Virus record (IMG/VR): IMGVR_UViG_2671180921_000023
Location: 1-34,489 of that record
Length of the DNA: 34,489 bases
Strand: one strand, 5' to 3'
Origin: a virus
Taxonomy: Duplodnaviria > Heunggongvirae > Uroviricota > Caudoviricetes
Below are positions 24,408 to 34,489 of the stretch, in pieces. Every line of letters begins with the position of its first letter. Position 1 is the stretch's first letter. The translations under genes were made by a program, and so were the position numbers. A model generated the notes under the pieces. It made no database searches. It saw only the letters and a list, made by a program, of their open reading frames with translations, and was not told the DNA's origin.

Positions 24408-24719
24408 TTATTCGGGGAATAAGGCCCTGATGTTTGCGGCCATCTGGCTGGGTGTCTGCACCTCTGGCGCAACCTGTACTTTGGGGCTTTCCGCCCTGAG
24501 CTGTGTCACGGGTAACGGCTCATCGTCAGCCCATGCAGCCAGCCGGTAAGCCTCTGCCGGATTCGTCTTCAGAAGTGCCAGCCCGGCCAGAAAAGCCACA
24601 CGTTGCCCGCTTTTGCGGGCTTCCGGTGTAAGGCTGTCCAGCCAGGCACATGCTTCGTTTTCGTTCTTGACTGCGGCTGGCTTCAGATAGAAACTTATCC
24701 GCCTGGTTGATGTTGTCAT
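24408..24719 (-). CDS. parR: ParR/StbB-like partition adaptor
   Basis: 103 aa, immediately downstream of parM; N-terminal RISFYLKPAAVKNE ... AFLAGLALL resembles plasmid R1 ParR. Confidence 0.65.
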   Translation of the reverse strand: MTTSTRRISFYLKPAAVKNENEACAWLDSLTPEARKSGQRVAFLAGLALLKTNPAEAYRLAAWADDEPLPVTQLRAESPKVQVAPEVQTPSQMAANIRALFPE

Positions 24720-24723
24720 TGGT

Positions 24724-25683
24724 TCACTCCCTGTTCATGTCATGGAGTCCATTAACCAGGGCAAACTGTGGCTCCGGTGTTGTGTGAATGTTTGCGTTGA
24801 GGCCGTAAGCGTCATGTACCGCCGGAGCCACAATCTCCGCCCCTCCACCGACAATCATCACCCGACCGTATCCCGAAAAGCCCGCCAGTGCGCGGATCAC
24901 GCGTTGTTTCAGTGTTTCTTCCTTTTCACGAATAACCGCCATCAGGCTGGCGTAATGCGCGTCATTGTGGATGTGCTGGCGCAGCCAGGCTTCATCGTGG
25001 CGATGTTCGATAATGGTATTGGCGATGTGGTGACTGGTACGCATACCGTTAGTGGCCATCACCGACAGTACGGCATCGGTCATCAGTGAAACGCCTACGT
25101 GTGGATCGCAAAATACCTGGCTGATGCCTGCCAGTTGCCCCTGAACCTTTGCCACATCCAGCGTGGTTCCGCCTAAATCCACAATCAGCAGGGATTCAAA
25201 CGGACTCATGTCAGCCAGTGCTTTAAAACCAGCCGGAATGGATTCAGGCATAACCCGTACGTTACGGATAGTGAATGCTTTTCCGTTCTGGTACGCCACC
25301 GGGCGCATGACGTTTGCTTTTTTGCGGTTGATGTTGGCCATGTCCGGCTGTGCGTTTGTGTCGAAATACTCGCTCAGTGGCAGGGTGACAACCACATCCA
25401 CTTCCTGTGGTGTGATGCCTGATTTGACCAGCGCGTGATGAATGGCAATGACATTCACATCGCTGTACTGGTATTGCGTGTCGGTCGTCTGGACAAAGCG
25501 ATCGCTGACCGGATCAAAACCATAGCGCACGCCATCAAGCATGTAGTTCGCGGGCTGCGTGCCACCGAACGGCGCAGACCATTCCGACTTGAAGCTGTTC
25601 GGGCTGATGGCGTTGCGGCGTTCGCCGTTCTCAGTCCATGCCAGCTTGATGTTGGTGGAGCCGTCATCGATACAAATTTTCAT
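24724..25683 (-). CDS. parM: ParM/StbA actin-like segregation ATPase
   Basis: 319 aa with ParM phosphate-binding motifs: IDDGSTNIKL, FTIRNVRVMPESIPAG, LLIVDLGGTTLDV, VMIVGGGAE. Co-linear with R1 ParM. Confidence 0.85.
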   Translation of the reverse strand: MKICIDDGSTNIKLAWTENGERRNAISPNSFKSEWSAPFGGTQPANYMLDGVRYGFDPVSDRFVQTTDTQYQYSDVNVIAIHHALVKSGITPQEVDVVVTLPLSEYFDTNAQPDMANINRKKANVMRPVAYQNGKAFTIRNVRVMPESIPAGFKALADMSPFESLLIVDLGGTTLDVAKVQGQLAGISQVFCDPHVGVSLMTDAVLSVMATNGMRTSHHIANTIIEHRHDEAWLRQHIHNDAHYASLMAVIREKEETLKQRVIRALAGFSGYGRVMIVGGGAEIVAPAVHDAYGLNANIHTTPEPQFALVNGLHDMNRE

Positions 25684-25714: not shown

Positions 25715-25827
25715 TTTACGGGATTCTGAAATCCCGTTTTTGCCTGTTTTGTGCGCGCTTCATATATCGCTGCGCGTTTTTTGCTCATTTACGGGATTCG
25801 TGAGTCCCGTTTCTGTCTGTTTTTTGT
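25715..25827. repeat. Two 40-bp direct repeats, each a hairpin plus T-run; candidate parC centromere/promoter or origin-associated element
   Basis: Copy 1 at 25715-25753 (intergenic, upstream of parM); copy 2 at 25788-25827 (inside the last codons of gene A). Each has an ACGGGATT-type 8-bp stem. Confidence 0.5.
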
Positions 25828-28600
25828 TTCCGCTGGTCAGGCCACCCCGCAGCAGGTCTGCTTTGCGGCTGGCGCGTTCAGTGGTTTCACTGATTCTCTG
25901 TGCGTGCTCTGCGTCGCGGATGGCGCGCAGCATGTCAGAAAGCACGGTAACGGGTGTTTTCATGGTGTTCTGGTCCTGCTGAAGTGTGGATGCCAGGCGT
26001 GCGGCGGCTTCAGGGTCTGATGCCCCCAGCTGTGCCAGATAGCTGGCGACCGGGTTATGGCGGATCTCCGTGCTGCTTACGCCATGATTACGGCTCAGGC
26101 GCTGCCAGAGCTGCGTGATTCGGCTGTCCGGGCGGGTATCCGGTTTGCGTACAATTTCAAATCCCTGCGGTGCAATGATGCTGCCGTCAACGTACAGACT
26201 GCCGCCCCGTAACAGGTGCTGCATCTGTTGTTCACCGATATGCAGGCCGAGAGATTCAGCAGACTCCCGCCATTCTTTAGCGAGTAATTCGTGGTTATCA
26301 GGCAAAGGCCGCTGCTGTTTGCGGCTCTGTGTCCAGCTCTGCATTTCATCACTGCTGTTTTTTGCCTGTTTGTCACGAAGCGAACGCATCAGCGCCCGGC
26401 GTTCGTGCCGTTTCAGTGAGCGCATCCATTCGTTCACTTCAACGCCGTCAGGGAGCTGCGGCCACGGTGCTGGCCGTTCTTCCGGCTGTTCTGTCCCGTT
26501 GTTGTCCGTTTCCTGTACACGGGGACAGTTATTGCCACGAGTCCAAGGGGCGGCAGGGCCGCCCTGAAGGTCAAAACCATTTTCGCGGGAGCTGTCTTCC
26601 GCTTCCGGTTTACGTCTTACCAGCTTCCAGTTATCCGGGTGCGTGCACACACGGGAGGATTCCCCGATGAGTGGTGACCAGATCCCGTAAATCTGTACAC
26701 TCTGTTCGCCGTAATCGTTCAGCTCATCTGCGAGGTCGTAGGCGGTGCGAATCAGGTAGTCTTTACGTGGAACAAGTACTCCGCCCTGTTTCTCAATGTA
26801 GGTGGCAAAACATCCGGCATCAGCGGCAGCAAGAACCGCATCCATTGCGTCATCCTTCAGCCGTTGTGGGCCTTCCGGGTTGCGTGCCATCTGGCTGGCA
26901 AGGCGGCGCAGTTCACGCCATACCTGACGGGAGGGGATACCAAAGAACTGGAACTGGCGGACCCGGTGAAGGCGCGCCCAGCCGATGGCGCGCTCCACGC
27001 TCTCGGCCATTGATTTTCCGGTTTCGTGGTCAACGCGTGGCTTGCCCGTTTTCGGGTCGATGCCATCCACGGCGCGGCTATCCAGGTTCTTTCCGATGTA
27101 GGTGGCGATGTAGCTGGTTGGCGTGCCTTTCGAACCGTCGACGTACTCTGCCTTAAAGCGCGGAGTAATATCATTGCCCAGCTCGTGGCGGTCTTCCTGA
27201 ATGGCAATATCGCAGACGTGGGACACGATGGTTTCAATCTCGTCCGGATGTGCAAAGACCATCATATGCCAGTGCACCGTGCCGTCATGGTGAGGCTCCA
27301 CCGTGCGGATGCCATACCAGCGCAGACCGTCGCGGTTCAGTTTTTTGCGGACCGCCGCAAAAAACGTGTTAACCAGGTAATCGCTGGAGTCGCGCATGGT
27401 GGCTCCGTTCCATTTGGGGTTCGGATGACCGTTCTCCGTTGTTGCGTGGTATTTTGACGGGCAGGTGACAGTCAGAAACACCGCTCTGTCGCCACGGGCT
27501 TCGGCCAGAAGTTCCAGCCCCTTCATGGTGGCCATCATTTCTGCCTTACGGTGAACCGGGTTACTTACTCCCGCGTAATACACTGTCTCGAGATCAATCG
27601 TGAACCCGTCTTCATTTTCCAGCATGAAACTTTTCAGGAAATCGCGTGTTTTCTCGCGCTGTGCGCGAAACTCGCTTAACGCGTCCTGGCTCAGATAGGG
27701 TGATGTTTTTCTGGAAACCAGACAGGCGGCGCGGAGTTGTTCTTCTCTCCACTCGCAACGTAACAGCCACAGTTTGCGTTTCCACCATTCCGCACAGGTC
27801 AGGCGAAGGATTGCGCCCGGCAGCAGCTCCGTGTCCGGTTCGTTCCTCCGGTCTTTGTCTGTTGTCAGTGCGTCATAATGTGGAGGCATGGCGTGCAGGT
27901 GTAACGCCATGCGGGCCAGCATCTGATACGCCTTCAGCGTTACATCCATGGTCAGTTCGCCATCAGTAGCGCCAAAGCCATCGCAGAGTTTTTCGAAGGT
28001 GCTGCTGAACATCGCCGCCGTCATGGTGGCCAGCGTCTGTATCTGGTGTTTGTTGAGCTGCGGCAGGTAAAGCAAATCGTCCAGGCGTTCGCGTCCGGCA
28101 AGGGAGCGATAACCCGGTGTCAGCCAGCGGTGATCGGTGCGGTCCAGACGTTCGAATATTTTGCGCAGGGTTCCGCGCGCGTAGCGTTCAGCCTGCCAGC
28201 TCTTTTTGCCTTTCTGGCGATCGGCTTCCTGTTTTTTGCGCAGGAAAGAGAGGTGGCGGCTCAGAGGTTCACGCAGATAAACGGGAAGCACCTTCAGTGT
28301 GGCAAAAGCACGGGCCACCGGGTCTTGTTCTGTTGCCTGACGCTTGCTGATGATGCTTTGTGCCAGCTTTTCACGCTGTCCGGCTTCCTCAAGGGATGCC
28401 ATGAGTTTTTTACCCATGGCGGATTGTGCGAAAAAGGCTTCCTCCTTCGCTTCCTGTTCTTCCTGGGCCTTTTTGTCTGCCTCAAGGTAGTAACGGATGG
28501 CGCGTTGCAGGTCGGTTTCAGTTTCCTGCCTGCACTCCGTAAATCTGGCCGGATCAATGGCTGGCCGCGGTTCATTCCAGCTCCATGCAAACTCACTCAT
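25760..28600 (-). CDS. A: Replication initiation protein gpA (rolling-circle HUH endonuclease)
   Basis: About 946 aa, P2 gpA-like with HUH motif (VHWHMMVF). Start at ATG 28600 overlaps the upstream stop (ATGA coupling). Confidence 0.85.
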   Translation of the reverse strand: MSEFAWSWNEPRPAIDPARFTECRQETETDLQRAIRYYLEADKKAQEEQEAKEEAFFAQSAMGKKLMASLEEAGQREKLAQSIISKRQATEQDPVARAFATLKVLPVYLREPLSRHLSFLRKKQEADRQKGKKSWQAERYARGTLRKIFERLDRTDHRWLTPGYRSLAGRERLDDLLYLPQLNKHQIQTLATMTAAMFSSTFEKLCDGFGATDGELTMDVTLKAYQMLARMALHLHAMPPHYDALTTDKDRRNEPDTELLPGAILRLTCAEWWKRKLWLLRCEWREEQLRAACLVSRKTSPYLSQDALSEFRAQREKTRDFLKSFMLENEDGFTIDLETVYYAGVSNPVHRKAEMMATMKGLELLAEARGDRAVFLTVTCPSKYHATTENGHPNPKWNGATMRDSSDYLVNTFFAAVRKKLNRDGLRWYGIRTVEPHHDGTVHWHMMVFAHPDEIETIVSHVCDIAIQEDRHELGNDITPRFKAEYVDGSKGTPTSYIATYIGKNLDSRAVDGIDPKTGKPRVDHETGKSMAESVERAIGWARLHRVRQFQFFGIPSRQVWRELRRLASQMARNPEGPQRLKDDAMDAVLAAADAGCFATYIEKQGGVLVPRKDYLIRTAYDLADELNDYGEQSVQIYGIWSPLIGESSRVCTHPDNWKLVRRKPEAEDSSRENGFDLQGGPAAPWTRGNNCPRVQETDNNGTEQPEERPAPWPQLPDGVEVNEWMRSLKRHERRALMRSLRDKQAKNSSDEMQSWTQSRKQQRPLPDNHELLAKEWRESAESLGLHIGEQQMQHLLRGGSLYVDGSIIAPQGFEIVRKPDTRPDSRITQLWQRLSRNHGVSSTEIRHNPVASYLAQLGASDPEAAARLASTLQQDQNTMKTPVTVLSDMLRAIRDAEHAQRISETTERASRKADLLRGGLTSGNKKQTETGLTNPVNEQKTRSDI

Positions 28601-29016
28601 GGCTGGTATCCCGTCACGCGCTGCCACTCCTGCGAGAAGAGGGTGGAAAGGCGGTTAAACTCAGCGGTGTATTCACTCAGCGAGGCACACCCGCCAGCAG
28701 TGTGATGCGCCAGCATTGCCGCAAATACGGAGGCCGGGGAGTCGTAATACGCCAGCAGTGATTCGCCGTGTGGTGTCAGGCAGTGCAACGCCAGCCCGTG
28801 TGGTGTCAGGCAGTGCAACGCCAGCCCGTGTGGTGTGAAGTCCACGCGGTAGCAGTCGTCTACTGTGAAATAAAGGGTGTCCGCATTCTCCGGTTTTGTG
28901 GTGCGTGCTCTGTTGTCACGACCGCGGATGTAGAGATCAAATAATCCCTGAAGAACGGGAGCCAGACGGGTGTCCTGTGTGCGCACCCATCTTGTGAAGT
29001 CATGAGCGTCAATCAT
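28597..29016 (-). CDS. Hypothetical early protein (139 aa) with an internal in-frame tandem duplication
   Basis: Protein repeat TPHGLALHCL x2 plus a partial third, encoded by a perfect 30-bp tandem repeat; translationally coupled to A. Confidence 0.5.
   Translation of the reverse strand: MIDAHDFTRWVRTQDTRLAPVLQGLFDLYIRGRDNRARTTKPENADTLYFTVDDCYRVDFTPHGLALHCLTPHGLALHCLTPHGESLLAYYDSPASVFAAMLAHHTAGGCASLSEYTAEFNRLSTLFSQEWQRVTGYQP
28767..28836. repeat. Perfect 30-bp tandem direct repeat (2 full copies plus a 10-bp partial) inside a CDS
   Basis: cgtgtggtgtcaggcagtgcaacgccagcc repeated at 28767-28796 and 28797-28826, then cgtgtggtgt. Confidence 0.9.
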
Positions 29017-29088
29017 GCTGCAATTCTCTTTACTACAGATGTGCGAAGGCCTCCCGCCGCAAGGTGCAGGAAAGGCCCGGAACAGGAA

Positions 29089-29319
29089 TTAATGGAGTTT
29101 GTTTTGCTGCTGGATGAGATCCTGAAGAGACAGGAGGTCTTCCGCCAGATAGCTGAATACAGCGGCGCAGTAGTCGGCTGAAATAGTGCTGTTGAGTCTG
29201 TGCAATGTGTTGGATTGCATGATAAAAGCGATGTGTGCAGCGCGGGTGAGTCTGCGGTTGATTTCAGTCTGGATGTGACGACGCTCCGCGATAGCGCGGT
29301 GCTGTTTGCGGTTTGCCAT
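29089..29319 (-). CDS. Hypothetical early protein (76 aa)
   Basis: Helical-looking basic small ORF; preferred over the overlapping low-complexity 205-aa ORF in another frame. Confidence 0.4.
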   Translation of the reverse strand: MANRKQHRAIAERRHIQTEINRRLTRAAHIAFIMQSNTLHRLNSTISADYCAAVFSYLAEDLLSLQDLIQQQNKLH

Positions 29320-29496
29320 GATGTGGCCTCTTTGGTTGTAAGTTTTGAAAACTCACCATCCAGAGCTGCGAAACTGTGGGTGGCGAGACGTACGAGGTTC
29401 GCAGTACCGGCAACCAAAGAACCCGGCCCGACCGAAGTCGGCCCCGTACGTCCCGCCATAATTCGTGTGCGAAAAAGACGTGGCAATACAGTACGC

Positions 29497-29520
29497 ACAA
29501 AAAAACCGCTGGCGCGGTTG
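29497..29520 (-). terminator. Putative intrinsic terminator/attenuator inside the early operon
   Basis: Minus-strand hairpin aaccgc-gcca-gcggtt followed by 7 T; lies in a 320-bp non-coding gap. Confidence 0.35.
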
Positions 29521-29639
29521 TGTGCTTTGGTTGTCAGCAGGCTGCGAAACCCGGCATCCGTTTTATGAGATGCAGCGGAAATGTAACCTGACTGATTGCG
29601 GCATGGCAAGCGGTTTTTTTGTGTGTACATAGTGGTTAC

Positions 29640-30191
29640 TCAGTCCGGTAGTAGTTCGCAAAGCACGGTATCAGCGGCGGTATATCGTGCGTAAAGCCTG
29701 GCGGGGACCCATCTTTTAAGGGATATCCCGGTCGTGTCCCGGATGTGCTTCCTGATTTCGCTGAATGTCATCCCCTTCTCATCACGCAGTTCAGTTACCA
29801 GCTCCACCAGGTGATCGCTGTATCTGGTTCTGTGGTGGAGTTCCCCGTATTTCCTGAACCGATACCCTCTTTTTCTCAGGTTCAGTTCTACCGTGGATGG
29901 CGAGCGCCCCAGCTCATTCGCGAGTTCCCGGATGGTTTTTGTGTGGCGATTCCTGATGAGCATGCTGAGTTCTTTTGTACTCAGTGGAGTTTGTTTGGCG
30001 TGAATAATCCCCTGAGAGAGCAAAAGACGGATGCGGCTTCGTATTGCTGACTCGGTTCTCTGAAAGTGCTTTGTCAGCTCCGGCGCTGTGTGGGAGTGGT
30101 ATAACGTGGCTAAAAGTTCATCCTCCTGCTGTGTCCATGGCTTTACATGTGCCGGAGCCACACCAGGCGTACCCATTGGTTTGAGTTTCAT
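29640..30191 (-). CDS. Multi-helix-turn-helix DNA-binding early protein (183 aa)
   Basis: Three HTH-like segments (for example LSTKELSMLIRNRHTKTIRELANELGRSPSTV); function unknown, possibly replication or regulation. Confidence 0.5.
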   Translation of the reverse strand: MKLKPMGTPGVAPAHVKPWTQQEDELLATLYHSHTAPELTKHFQRTESAIRSRIRLLLSQGIIHAKQTPLSTKELSMLIRNRHTKTIRELANELGRSPSTVELNLRKRGYRFRKYGELHHRTRYSDHLVELVTELRDEKGMTFSEIRKHIRDTTGISLKRWVPARLYARYTAADTVLCELLPD

Positions 30192-30205
30192 TGTGATTTA
30201 CTCCC

Positions 30206-30505
30206 TTACTGGTTAAGGAAAAAATCGAAAACGTTGTCGATGCGTTGCAGCAGCTCCTGCTGCATCGCTTCCGGCGTTTCTGATTCACCTGGTGACTCCA
30301 GCGGTGCGCAGAAATCCTTGATTTCATGATGGAGCGTCAGGCGAATGGCAGGAGCCATGGTTCTGGCGTGCTCCAGCTCATCCAGAAGCGCCAGCACGGC
30401 AGACGGCGAGAGCATTGCGCAAAACGCCAGTAATTTTTGATGTGTTGCCATTCGTTGCAGGTCAGTCGCCAGTTCGCGTAATTTCTGGTGGTTGATGGTG
30501 CTCAT
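30206..30505 (-). CDS. Hypothetical early protein (99 aa)
   Basis: Contains PSAVLALLDE, shared with the 179-aa accessory protein; 4-nt overlap with the upstream gene. Confidence 0.45.
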   Translation of the reverse strand: MSTINHQKLRELATDLQRMATHQKLLAFCAMLSPSAVLALLDELEHARTMAPAIRLTLHHEIKDFCAPLESPGESETPEAMQQELLQRIDNVFDFFLNQ

Positions 30506-34060: not shown

Positions 34061-34237
34061 TATGCGATGTATCTCGCGATTTTTTTTTGTAACTTTTCCA
34101 TCTTTTGCTTTTCTCTCCGAGCCGCTTTCCATATCTGCAATCGCATAAAAAACTCTGCTGGCGTTCACAAATGTGCAGGGGTAAAACGTTTCCTGTAGCA
34201 CCGTGAGTTATACTTTGTATAACTTAAGGAGGTGCAG

Positions 34238-34489
34238 ATGCGTATTACCATAAAAAGATGGGGGAACAGTGCAGGTATGGTCATTCCCAATATCGTAATG
34301 AAAGAACTTAACTTACAGCCGGGGCAGAGCGTGGAAGCGCAGGTGAGCAACAACCAACTGATTCTGACACCCATCTCCAGGCGCTACTCGCTTGATGAAC
34401 TGCTGGCACAGTGTGACATGAACGCCGCGGAACTTAGCGAGCAGGATGTCTGGGGTAAATCCACCCCTGCGGGTGACGAAATATGGTAA
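34238..34489 (+). CDS. chpS: ChpS (ChpBI) antitoxin of the chpB-chpS toxin-antitoxin pair
   Basis: 83 aa MRITIKRWGNSAGMVIPNIVMKELNLQPGQ ... GDEIW, complete; the stop TAA is the last 3 nt of the window. The ATGGTAA ending suggests an overlapping chpB start just beyond the window. Confidence 0.85.
   Translation: MRITIKRWGNSAGMVIPNIVMKELNLQPGQSVEAQVSNNQLILTPISRRYSLDELLAQCDMNAAELSEQDVWGKSTPAGDEIW

What the first reader, a model, noticed from the sequence alone, without database searches (positions are those of the whole stretch)
28767..28836. Perfect 30-bp in-frame tandem duplication inside the gene upstream of A
The 139-aa early protein contains TPHGLALHCL twice plus a partial third copy, from a perfect 30-bp tandem DNA repeat. 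Perfect identity implies a recent slippage or duplication; such repeats can act as copy-number-variable switches, or could be an assembly artefact.
Basis: seen in the sequence. Interest (0 to 1): 0.4.

Follow-up and report, generated by a model that had tools for sequence, protein, structure and literature searches.

The report
Young in-frame 30-bp repeat, prophage gene
A small P2-like prophage gene of unknown function just upstream of the replication gene A carries a real, recently arisen 30-bp in-frame tandem duplication, made by slippage between two 11-bp direct repeats; it is an ordinary mutation and shows no sign of being a switch.

Summary
Window 28766-28836 is a perfect 30-bp x 2.4 tandem array, in codon register, inside the 139-aa ORF 28597-29016 (-). 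That ORF overlaps the gpA-type replication gene by 4 bp (ATGA).

- **Usual state in relatives:** one unit plus an 11-bp partial copy, that is, an 11-bp direct repeat (ACACCACACGG) at 30-bp spacing. This is seen in 399 complete E. coli genomes and 2 phages.
- **Window allele (2 units):** found in 14 draft-genome contigs. The loci read are 100% identical to the window.
- **3-unit allele:** found in 3 contigs. The two read differ from the 2-unit loci only by the extra unit and one host-flank SNP over 20 kb.
- **0-unit allele (exact 30-bp deletion):** found in 77 contigs as four protein variants, each with an exact 1-unit parent in the collection.

So this is a newly born coding minisatellite, made by slipped-strand or template-switch misalignment, and it varies in copy number. 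Every change is a whole number of 10-codon units, and alleles are inherited clonally. An assembly artefact is unlikely.

The unit encodes a beta-hairpin turn plus a strand; AlphaFold loops out the extra copy. The protein is probably a divergent relative of P2 Orf83 (DUF5405), function unknown. Interest is low.

The parts
28766..28836 (-). Perfect tandem array, 2 full 30-bp units plus an 11-bp partial third copy. Coding-strand unit: ACACCACACGGGCTGGCGTTGCACTGCCTG = TPHGLALHCL.
   Evidence: TRF score 142, 100% matches; sequence read; exact pattern counts.
28826..28836 (-). First copy (5'-most on the coding strand) of the 11-bp direct repeat ACACCACACGG (codons T61-P-H-G). In the ancestral 1-unit allele this is the upstream member of the 11-bp repeat pair.
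   Evidence: Alignment with E. coli A8 and phage PhiR44_2 orthologues; regex on loci.
28796..28825 (-). One of the two identical 30-bp units, absent from 1-unit relatives. Which of the two is 'new' cannot be decided, because they are identical.
   Evidence: 30-column gap in the alignment against relatives; all listed E. coli and phage matches span 390 rather than 420 bp.
28766..28776 (-). Last (partial) copy of the repeat: the downstream 11-bp direct repeat (T81-P-H-G), followed by unique sequence (CGAATC...).
28597..29016 (-). Host gene: 139-aa protein (129 aa in most relatives), phrog_3237, unknown function. It is the positional counterpart and probable distant relative of P2 Orf83 (DUF5405).
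   Evidence: ORF list; PHROG hit 1e-59; no Pfam or NCBIfam hit; dN/dS about 0.39 against a 76%-identical orthologue; same gene order in the remote homologue P0040 and in P2.
25760..28600 (-). gpA-type replication initiator/endonuclease gene. Its ATG overlaps the stop codon of the repeat-bearing gene (ATGA), so translational coupling is possible. In-frame unit changes leave this junction untouched.
   Evidence: Pfam Phage_GPA 1.9e-129; 946-aa product with a 4-bp overlap in relatives and identical loci.

Best explanation
This is a newly born coding minisatellite. In the common form of this small early gene of a P2-like (P88/Xuanwuvirus-type) prophage, the codons for T-P-H-G occur twice, 30 bp apart, as an exact 11-bp direct repeat (ACACCACACGG).

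Misalignment between these two 11-mers during replication, either slipped-strand mispairing or RecA-independent template switching, has two possible outcomes. It can delete the 30 bp between them, giving the 119-aa alleles; the four backgrounds suggest this happened more than once. Or it can duplicate them, giving the 139-aa allele of the window, seen on one prophage background.

Once duplicated, the misalignment target grows from 11 bp to 41 bp. A further step to three units (149 aa) has already occurred in the same, otherwise identical prophage.

Each step adds or removes exactly 10 codons. The reading frame and the ATGA junction with gene A are therefore preserved.

At the protein level the unit is the beta2-beta3 turn plus strand beta3 of a four-stranded beta-meander. 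The extra copy is predicted to loop out as a longer hairpin loop and leave the fold intact. The change is most likely neutral or mildly deleterious and drifts in a prophage gene under only moderate constraint.

- **Shown:** the anatomy, the ancestral state, the allelic series, and clonal inheritance.
- **Inferred:** the misalignment mechanism, the tolerance of the insertion, and the absence of a regulatory role.
For: Array and ancestral state:
- The array is perfect and in codon register.
- Orthologues in 399 complete E. coli genomes give one ungapped 1-unit match. None carries the 2-unit allele or the 0-unit allele. Two phages carry 1 unit.
- In the ancestral state the 11-bp repeat sits at both ends of the 30-bp segment, with different flanking bases on both sides.

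Allelic series on the window's own protein background:
- 129 aa (P0045): 12-16 contigs.
- 139 aa (P0020): 14 contigs.
- 149 aa (P0046): 3 contigs.
- 2-unit loci L007, L008 and L023 are 100% identical to the window or to L021. 3-unit loci L009 and L010 are 100% identical to the window over 5,724 + 10,240 bp apart from the extra 30 bp.
- Over 20,360 bp including host flank, 2-unit and 3-unit loci differ at one SNP. That SNP co-segregates with copy number; the 3-unit and 1-unit loci share the G.

Deletion alleles:
- Four 119-aa variants on 18 + 56 + 2 + 1 contigs.
- The DNA shows an exact 30-bp loss.
- Each has an exact 129-aa parent in the collection.

Other points:
- 11-mer direct repeats within 60 bp are not unusual: 3 observed in the ancestralised window against 0.55 expected, maximum 5 in shuffles.
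- Structure: the 129-aa model has pLDDT 77.6, with strands at 49-52, 56-61, 64-71 and 74-81. In the 139-aa model residues 63-73 are a loop with pLDDT below 50 and the rest is unchanged.
- Literature: direct-repeat-mediated de novo in-frame tandem repeats in a bacterial gene (PMC4169377); RecA-independent deletion and expansion at short direct repeats in E. coli (PMC7145654).
Against: - No reads were available, so the copy number in the source isolate and any heterogeneity within a culture are untested.
- Contig counts are not counts of independent isolates or events. The exact-sequence look-ups would miss repeat variants that carry any other substitution.
- Neutrality is inferred. The AlphaFold alignment is shallow (8-9 sequences) and has a gap at the insert, which biases the model toward looping the insert out.
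- The 0-unit allele removes a predicted beta-strand yet is on 77 contigs. The structural argument about tolerance is therefore weak, or the gene is dispensable in lysogens.
- The function of the protein is unknown, so a phenotypic effect of unit number cannot be excluded.
Confidence: 0.8

Rival explanations
1. Assembly or sequencing artefact: the true sequence has one unit and the extra 30 bp was created by the assembler.
For: The 2-unit pattern is absent from 5,426 complete E. coli genomes, from viral contigs, from GTDB species representatives and from JGI metagenomes. It is seen only in draft assemblies.
Against: The exact 139-aa product is on 14 contigs, and the loci read come from at least three different assemblies with different accession series (LOCS01, ABGTRE01, ABEISN01). 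Copy number (2 versus 3) co-segregates with a SNP 6.6 kb away in host DNA, which random assembler noise would not do. The ancestral repeat is 11 bp, shorter than assembler k-mers, and a 71-101 bp array is spanned by single short reads (inference).
Confidence: 0.03
2. Adaptive tunable or contingency locus: unit number is varied at high frequency to modulate the activity of this Orf83-like protein, and so replication, induction, or evasion of a host sensor.
For: Four length classes exist in nature. Expansion from 2 to 3 units happened with at most one SNP of divergence in 20 kb. A reversible in-frame tandem-repeat toggle is documented for a beta-lactamase (PMC4169377).
Against: Duplication alleles were found on one background only: 7 other 2-unit and 2 other 3-unit constructs, and 4- and 5-unit constructs on the window's own background, were all absent. 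Alleles are clonally inherited. Changes never alter the frame. In remote homologues the second TPHG is not conserved, so the repeat substrate is not a conserved feature of the family.
Confidence: 0.07
3. A one-off selected gain-of-function insertion: the longer hairpin was favoured in this prophage lineage but is not a switch.
For: The allele persists in at least 14 contigs and expanded further to 3 units. The gene is under purifying selection (dN/dS about 0.39), so it is not junk.
Against: All carriers read are essentially one clone (0-1 SNP in 20 kb), so persistence needs no selection. There is no recurrence on other backgrounds. The insert is predicted to be disordered.
Confidence: 0.08
4. 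A DNA-level element, such as iterons or protein-binding repeats near the start of the replication gene, rather than a coding feature.
For: Direct repeats lie about 170-240 bp upstream of the A start codon.
Against: Relatives have a single unit. The unit occurs nowhere else in the window, even with 3 mismatches. In P2 the origin is annotated inside gene A, not upstream of it. There is no significant DNA hairpin (z-scores +0.55, +1.09 and -0.51) and no Rfam family over the array.
Confidence: 0.02

Closest known systems
De novo in-frame tandem repeats mediated by short direct repeats, as in the penA beta-lactamase omega-loop duplications of Burkholderia thailandensis (Yi et al. 2014, PMC4169377)
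   Same: The duplicated coding segment is bounded by a pair of short direct repeats in the parent allele. The copies are perfect and head-to-tail, the change is in-frame, the insert lies in a loop or turn region, and contraction back is possible.
   Different: No selection regime or phenotype is known here. Reversion was not observed. The event is seen in natural prophage populations rather than under antibiotic selection.
RecA-independent deletion and expansion between short or tandem direct repeats in E. coli, by replication slippage or template switching in post-replication gaps (PMC7145654 and work cited there)
   Same: Both deletion and expansion products of the same repeat pair are seen. 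The repeats are close together and far shorter than 200 bp.
   Different: The mechanism is inferred from the products only. No genetic dependence (recA, uup, radD) was tested, and the repeats here (11 bp, then 41 bp) are shorter than the 101-bp assay repeats.
Phage P2 Orf83 (DUF5405, PF17399), the small ORF immediately upstream of and overlapping gene A
   Same: Same position and overlap with A. The remote family member P0042 passes the DUF5405 gathering score (29.0 versus 21.6 bits). A BFVD DUF5405 protein is among the best fold matches (TM 0.53/0.68). hhalign aligns the same C-terminal strand-plus-helices region.
   Different: The window protein itself gives no Pfam hit. It is 129-139 aa against 91 aa and has an extra N-terminal helical part. 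The direct profile comparison is weak (probability 9%). The function of Orf83 is also unknown.
Simple-sequence contingency loci (phase-variable genes of Neisseria, Haemophilus and Campylobacter)
   Same: Repeat copy number changes by slippage.
   Different: Those loci use 1-8 bp units whose changes shift the frame or the promoter spacing, and the tracts are conserved and hypervariable. Here the unit is 30 bp, always in-frame, and the multi-unit tract exists in one clone only.

Membership tests
Direct-repeat-mediated de novo tandem duplication (newborn minisatellite) | Perfect head-to-tail copies | tested here: met
   2.4 copies, 100% identity, 0 indels.
Direct-repeat-mediated de novo tandem duplication (newborn minisatellite) | Close relatives carry the unduplicated state, in which a short direct repeat marks both ends of the segment, and the unit length equals the repeat spacing | tested here: met
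   ACACCACACGG occurs twice at 30-bp spacing in L001, L002 and L011-L020. 399 complete genomes carry the 1-unit state.
Direct-repeat-mediated de novo tandem duplication (newborn minisatellite) | The reciprocal deletion product of the same repeat pair exists | tested here: met
   119-aa alleles with an exact 30-bp loss. Each has an exact 1-unit parent in the collection.
Direct-repeat-mediated de novo tandem duplication (newborn minisatellite) | Dependence on replication misalignment (RecA-independent) | not testable with these tools
   This needs genetics. It is inferred from the products and from PMC7145654.
Phase-variable contingency locus | Unit changes toggle expression, by frameshift or altered promoter spacing | tested here: not met
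   The unit is 30 bp = 10 codons and lies inside the ORF. The 119-, 129-, 139- and 149-aa products are all full length.
Phase-variable contingency locus | The repeat tract is conserved across relatives with many different counts | tested here: not met
   All 399 complete genomes matched without a gap carry 1 unit. Multi-unit alleles were found on one background only.
Phase-variable contingency locus | High-frequency variation within a strain | not testable with these tools
   No reads were available. Indirectly, copy number tracks a flanking SNP, which suggests clonal stability.
DUF5405 / P2 Orf83-like proteins (PF17399) | Pfam PF17399 score above the gathering threshold | tested here: inconclusive
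   The window protein and P0001 give no hit even at E up to 10. Family members do better: P0042 scores 29.0 bits (cut-off 21.6) and P0040 scores 14.9 bits. P0042 relates to P0001 at E 2.2e-10.
DUF5405 / P2 Orf83-like proteins (PF17399) | Gene lies immediately upstream of and overlaps gene A in a P2-like early operon | tested here: met
   Window and relatives. P2 Orf83 at 27769-28044 against A at 28034-30319. P2 Orf83 hits DUF5405 at 4.2e-13.
DUF5405 / P2 Orf83-like proteins (PF17399) | Shared fold | tested here: inconclusive
Inositol monophosphatase (the name given by RefSeq/UniRef) | Match to the inositol monophosphatase family domain | tested here: not met
   No Pfam or NCBIfam hit of any kind, no PDB sequence hit below E 0.2, and the protein is only 129-139 aa. 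The name looks like propagated mis-annotation.
Replication-origin iterons | Several conserved copies of a binding repeat in relatives, at or near the origin | tested here: not met
   Relatives have a single unit. There are no other copies in the window. The P2 origin is annotated inside A.

The most novel reading that the evidence does not exclude
The array could be a tunable in-frame repeat that lets this prophage lineage vary the length of a surface beta-hairpin of an Orf83-like accessory protein translationally coupled to the replication initiator. Unit number would then modulate replication or induction, or escape from a host factor that recognises this protein. That would be an in-frame 'rheostat' locus in a temperate phage early operon.
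Probability: 0.06. Interest if true: 0.5.

Novelty: new member of a known kind. Interest (0 to 1): 0.22.

Why it matters
The practical value is modest.

First, the 30-bp duplication is real. It should not be "corrected" as an assembly error, and it can serve as a clonal marker for this prophage lineage.

Second, public genomes here capture every stage of minisatellite birth at one site: the 11-bp direct-repeat substrate, the reciprocal deletion, the first duplication, and the next expansion. This gives a clean natural illustration of how coding tandem repeats arise in bacteria and phages.

Third, both loss and gain of a predicted beta-strand unit are tolerated in lysogens. This says the Orf83-like gene upstream of A is under only moderate constraint.

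The finding does not open a new mechanism or make an open question testable.

Tried and rejected
- **Hairpin-assisted slippage:** DNA folds of both strands of the array and of the ancestral region are no more stable than shuffles (z +0.55, +1.09, -0.51). Rejected.
- **Iterons or dispersed copies:** the unit and the 11-mer occur only in the array. Rejected.
- **Structured RNA over the array:** Rfam gives only C4 and isrK, about 540-740 bp away from the array.
- **Exact 71-bp pattern scans** of IMG/VR, GTDB representatives and JGI metagenomes: 0 hits each. These collections simply do not hold the clone.
- **Wider allele search:** 2-unit alleles on 7 other protein backgrounds, 3-unit alleles on 2 others, and 4- and 5-unit alleles on the window background are not in the collection. 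These look-ups are exact-match only.
- **The RefSeq name 'inositol monophosphatase':** considered and rejected for lack of any support.

Full report
**1. The observation**

Tandem Repeats Finder reports a perfect array at 28766-28836: period 30, 2.4 copies, no mismatches or indels, score 142. This is the highest score in the window.

The 30-mer occurs exactly twice and its first 11 bases exactly three times in the window. Dinucleotide-preserving shuffles give none.

The array lies in the minus-strand ORF 28597-29016 (139 aa). It begins at the first base of codon 61 (window 28836), so the protein reads TPHGLALHCL-TPHGLALHCL-TPHG. The description is therefore correct.

**2. Context**

The window is a P2-like (Peduoviridae) prophage. 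Its best phage matches are P88-type phages (Xuanwuvirus is the name one match carries), and the match is mosaic.

The gene downstream of the ORF is a gpA-type replication endonuclease (Pfam Phage_GPA, E 1.9e-129). In annotated relatives and in identical loci its ATG overlaps the stop codon of the repeat-bearing gene (ATGA). This gives A = 25760-28600, 946 aa.

Upstream lie three known elements:
- a 76-aa 'derepression protein' gene at 29089-29319;
- a C4 antisense RNA at 29376-29463;
- an isrK sRNA at 29499-29573.

In related loci the prophage sits between host ppa, with a pemK/mazE pair, and the phage integrase.

**3. What relatives look like**

The gene is present in 408 of 5,426 complete E. 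coli genomes and in two phages (PhiR44_2 and Chuche). Every listed match spans 390 bp rather than 420 bp.

The alignment shows a clean 30-column gap and otherwise about 98% identity. The common allele reads GACTTC-ACACCACACGG-GCTGGCGTTGCACTGCCTG-ACACCACACGG-CGAATC. That is an exact 11-bp direct repeat at 30-bp spacing, with different bases on each side of the two copies.

Junction-specific searches of the complete genomes gave these counts:

| Allele | Complete genomes |
|---|---|
| 1 unit, ungapped | 399 |
| 2 units | 0 |
| 0 units | 0 |

Such an 11-mer repeat is not exceptional. With one unit removed, the window has 3 such pairs within 60 bp, against 0.55 expected and a maximum of 5 in shuffles. 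A 76%-identical orthologue carries an imperfect version, ACACCACAAGG...ACACCACACGG. In the two remote homologues the second TPHG is absent.

**4. The allelic series**

Exact-sequence look-ups in the 15-billion-protein collection changed the picture.

| Units | Protein | Contigs |
|---|---|---|
| 1 (window's protein background) | P0045, 129 aa | 12-16 |
| 2 (window allele) | P0020, 139 aa | 14 |
| 3 | P0046, 149 aa | 3 |
| 0 (four protein variants) | P0002, P0034, P0035, P0036, 119 aa | 18 + 56 + 2 + 1 |

- **2 units.** The allele is in NCBI draft genomes. Loci L007, L008 and L021-L023 come from three different assemblies. They are 100% identical to the window or to each other wherever they overlap.
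- **3 units.** Loci L009 and L010 are 100% identical to the window over 5,724 + 10,240 bp apart from one extra unit.
- **1 unit.** The nearest loci differ from the 2-unit loci by 9 SNPs in 10.7-12.4 kb.
- **Flanking SNP.** Over 20,360 bp including host flank, 2-unit and 3-unit loci differ at a single site, position 3433 of L021. It is T in both 2-unit loci and G in both 3-unit loci and in the 1-unit relatives. Copy number is therefore phylogenetically coherent. The sampled T-bearing 2-unit isolates are a sister branch of the 3-unit lineage, not its ancestors.
- **0 units.** The DNA shows an exact loss of one unit. Each of the four variants has an exact 129-aa parent in the collection. Two of those parents are very common, at 1,000 or more contigs each. 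This indicates recurrent deletion, or less likely recombination.
- **Not found.** 2-unit alleles on seven other backgrounds, 3-unit alleles on two others, and 4- and 5-unit alleles on the window background are all absent. These are exact-match tests only.

**5. Mechanism**

The products are those expected from misalignment between short direct repeats: deletion or duplication of exactly the repeat spacing. After the first duplication the homologous target is longer (41 bp), which favours further steps.

This matches two published cases. One is direct-repeat-mediated de novo tandem repeats in a bacterial coding region (PMC4169377). The other is RecA-independent deletion and expansion at short direct repeats in E. 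coli, by slippage or by template switching in post-replication gaps (PMC7145654).

No hairpin assists the process. The mechanism itself is inferred, not tested.

**6. Artefact?**

An artefact is unlikely, for four reasons:
- the same allele appears in at least three independently accessioned assemblies among 14 contigs;
- a further 3-unit allele exists;
- copy number co-segregates with a SNP 6.6 kb away;
- in the ancestral state nothing longer than 11 bp is repeated, so an assembler has no ambiguity from which to invent a copy (inference).

Reads were not available, so this is not proven.

**7. The protein and the effect of the insert**

The family is narrow. There is no Pfam, NCBIfam or PADLOC hit, and the matching PHROG (phrog_3237) has unknown function.

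A full HMMER scan of 1.84 billion representatives found only two full-length remote homologues, P0040 (44% identity) and P0042 (33% identity). P0040 has the same gene order: derepression gene, this gene, then an overlapping downstream ORF, cut at the contig end and not identified, at the position of A.

Evidence linking the protein to P2 Orf83 (DUF5405):
- P0042 passes the Pfam DUF5405 threshold, 29.0 against 21.6 bits.
- P2 Orf83, the ORF immediately upstream of and overlapping P2 gene A, is a DUF5405 protein.
- A DUF5405 phage protein is among the best BFVD fold matches (TM 0.53/0.68, E 0.014).
- The direct profile comparison with P2 Orf83 is weak (probability 9%).

I therefore regard the protein as a probable divergent, N-terminally extended Orf83/DUF5405 relative. 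Its function is unknown.

The RefSeq name 'inositol monophosphatase' has no support. dN/dS against a 76%-identical orthologue is about 0.39, so this is a real gene under moderate constraint.

AlphaFold2 on the 129-aa form (pLDDT 77.6) gives:
- N-terminal helices at 4-34;
- a flexible linker;
- a four-stranded beta-meander at 49-52, 56-61, 64-71 and 74-81;
- two C-terminal helices.

The unit is the beta2/beta3 turn plus strand beta3, and the partial copy is the next turn. In the 139-aa model (pLDDT 71.7) the extra unit, residues 63-73, is a low-confidence loop and the rest of the fold is unchanged.

**8. Verdict**

The array is a real, recent, in-frame tandem duplication: a newborn coding minisatellite. 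It arose by direct-repeat misalignment in an Orf83-like early gene of a P2-like prophage.

It does vary in copy number in nature, with 0, 1, 2 and 3 units. But the variants are rare and clonally inherited, and they never change the frame or the junction with gene A. There is no evidence for a switch.

This is an ordinary mutational phenomenon, unusually well documented by public genomes. Interest is low. Its kind is known, and this instance is new.

Noticed in passing
window 29376-29463 (-) and 29499-29573 (-): Rfam hits well above gathering scores: C4 antisense RNA (85.1 bits) and isrK Hfq-binding sRNA (64.7 bits). They lie between the HTH-regulator gene (29640-30191) and the 'derepression protein' gene (29089-29319), an arrangement that recalls the P1/P7 c4-ant immunity module but sits in a P2-like early operon. 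A mechanical 205-aa ORF (29013-29630, minus strand) overlaps both RNAs and the derepression gene. Some records annotate it as a CDS, and it is probably a spurious call.
   Followed up: partly
window 28597-29016 (-) and orthologues: RefSeq, UniRef and nr name this 129-aa family 'inositol monophosphatase'. No Pfam, NCBIfam or PDB sequence evidence supports that name, so it looks like propagated mis-annotation. A remote member (P0042) instead passes Pfam DUF5405, the family of P2 Orf83.
   Followed up: yes
window 28692-28702 and 28750-28760: A second exact 11-bp direct repeat (CGCCAGCAGTG) lies in the same gene, 58 bp apart. Misalignment here would shift the frame. No such alleles were looked for.
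   Followed up: no
window 24408-25683 (-): ParM/StbA-like (319 aa) and Plasmid_stab_B (103 aa) genes lie directly downstream of gene A. This is a plasmid-type partition module inside an integrated P2-like prophage, and it is conserved in relatives.
   Followed up: no
window ~34063-34489; L009 4184-4779; L011/L016 3371-4843: The right end of the window is the mazE antitoxin gene of a pemK/mazE pair lying between host ppa and the phage integrase. In some 1-unit relatives (L011, L016) this spot holds a 490-aa ORF with no Pfam hit instead. It is a variable cargo site beside the attachment site.
   Followed up: no
L014 8111-10950; L011 10387-13206: In one 1-unit relative (L014) gene A is split into 420-aa and 501-aa ORFs, probably a pseudogene or an assembly error. 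In another (L011) it is 939 aa rather than 946 aa.
   Followed up: no
L021 position 3433 (host intergenic region upstream of ppa): A single SNP separates the 2-unit loci (T) from the 3-unit and 1-unit loci (G). This implies that the sampled 2-unit isolates are a side branch and that an unsampled 2-unit, G-bearing intermediate exists, or that a 3-to-2 contraction occurred.
   Followed up: partly
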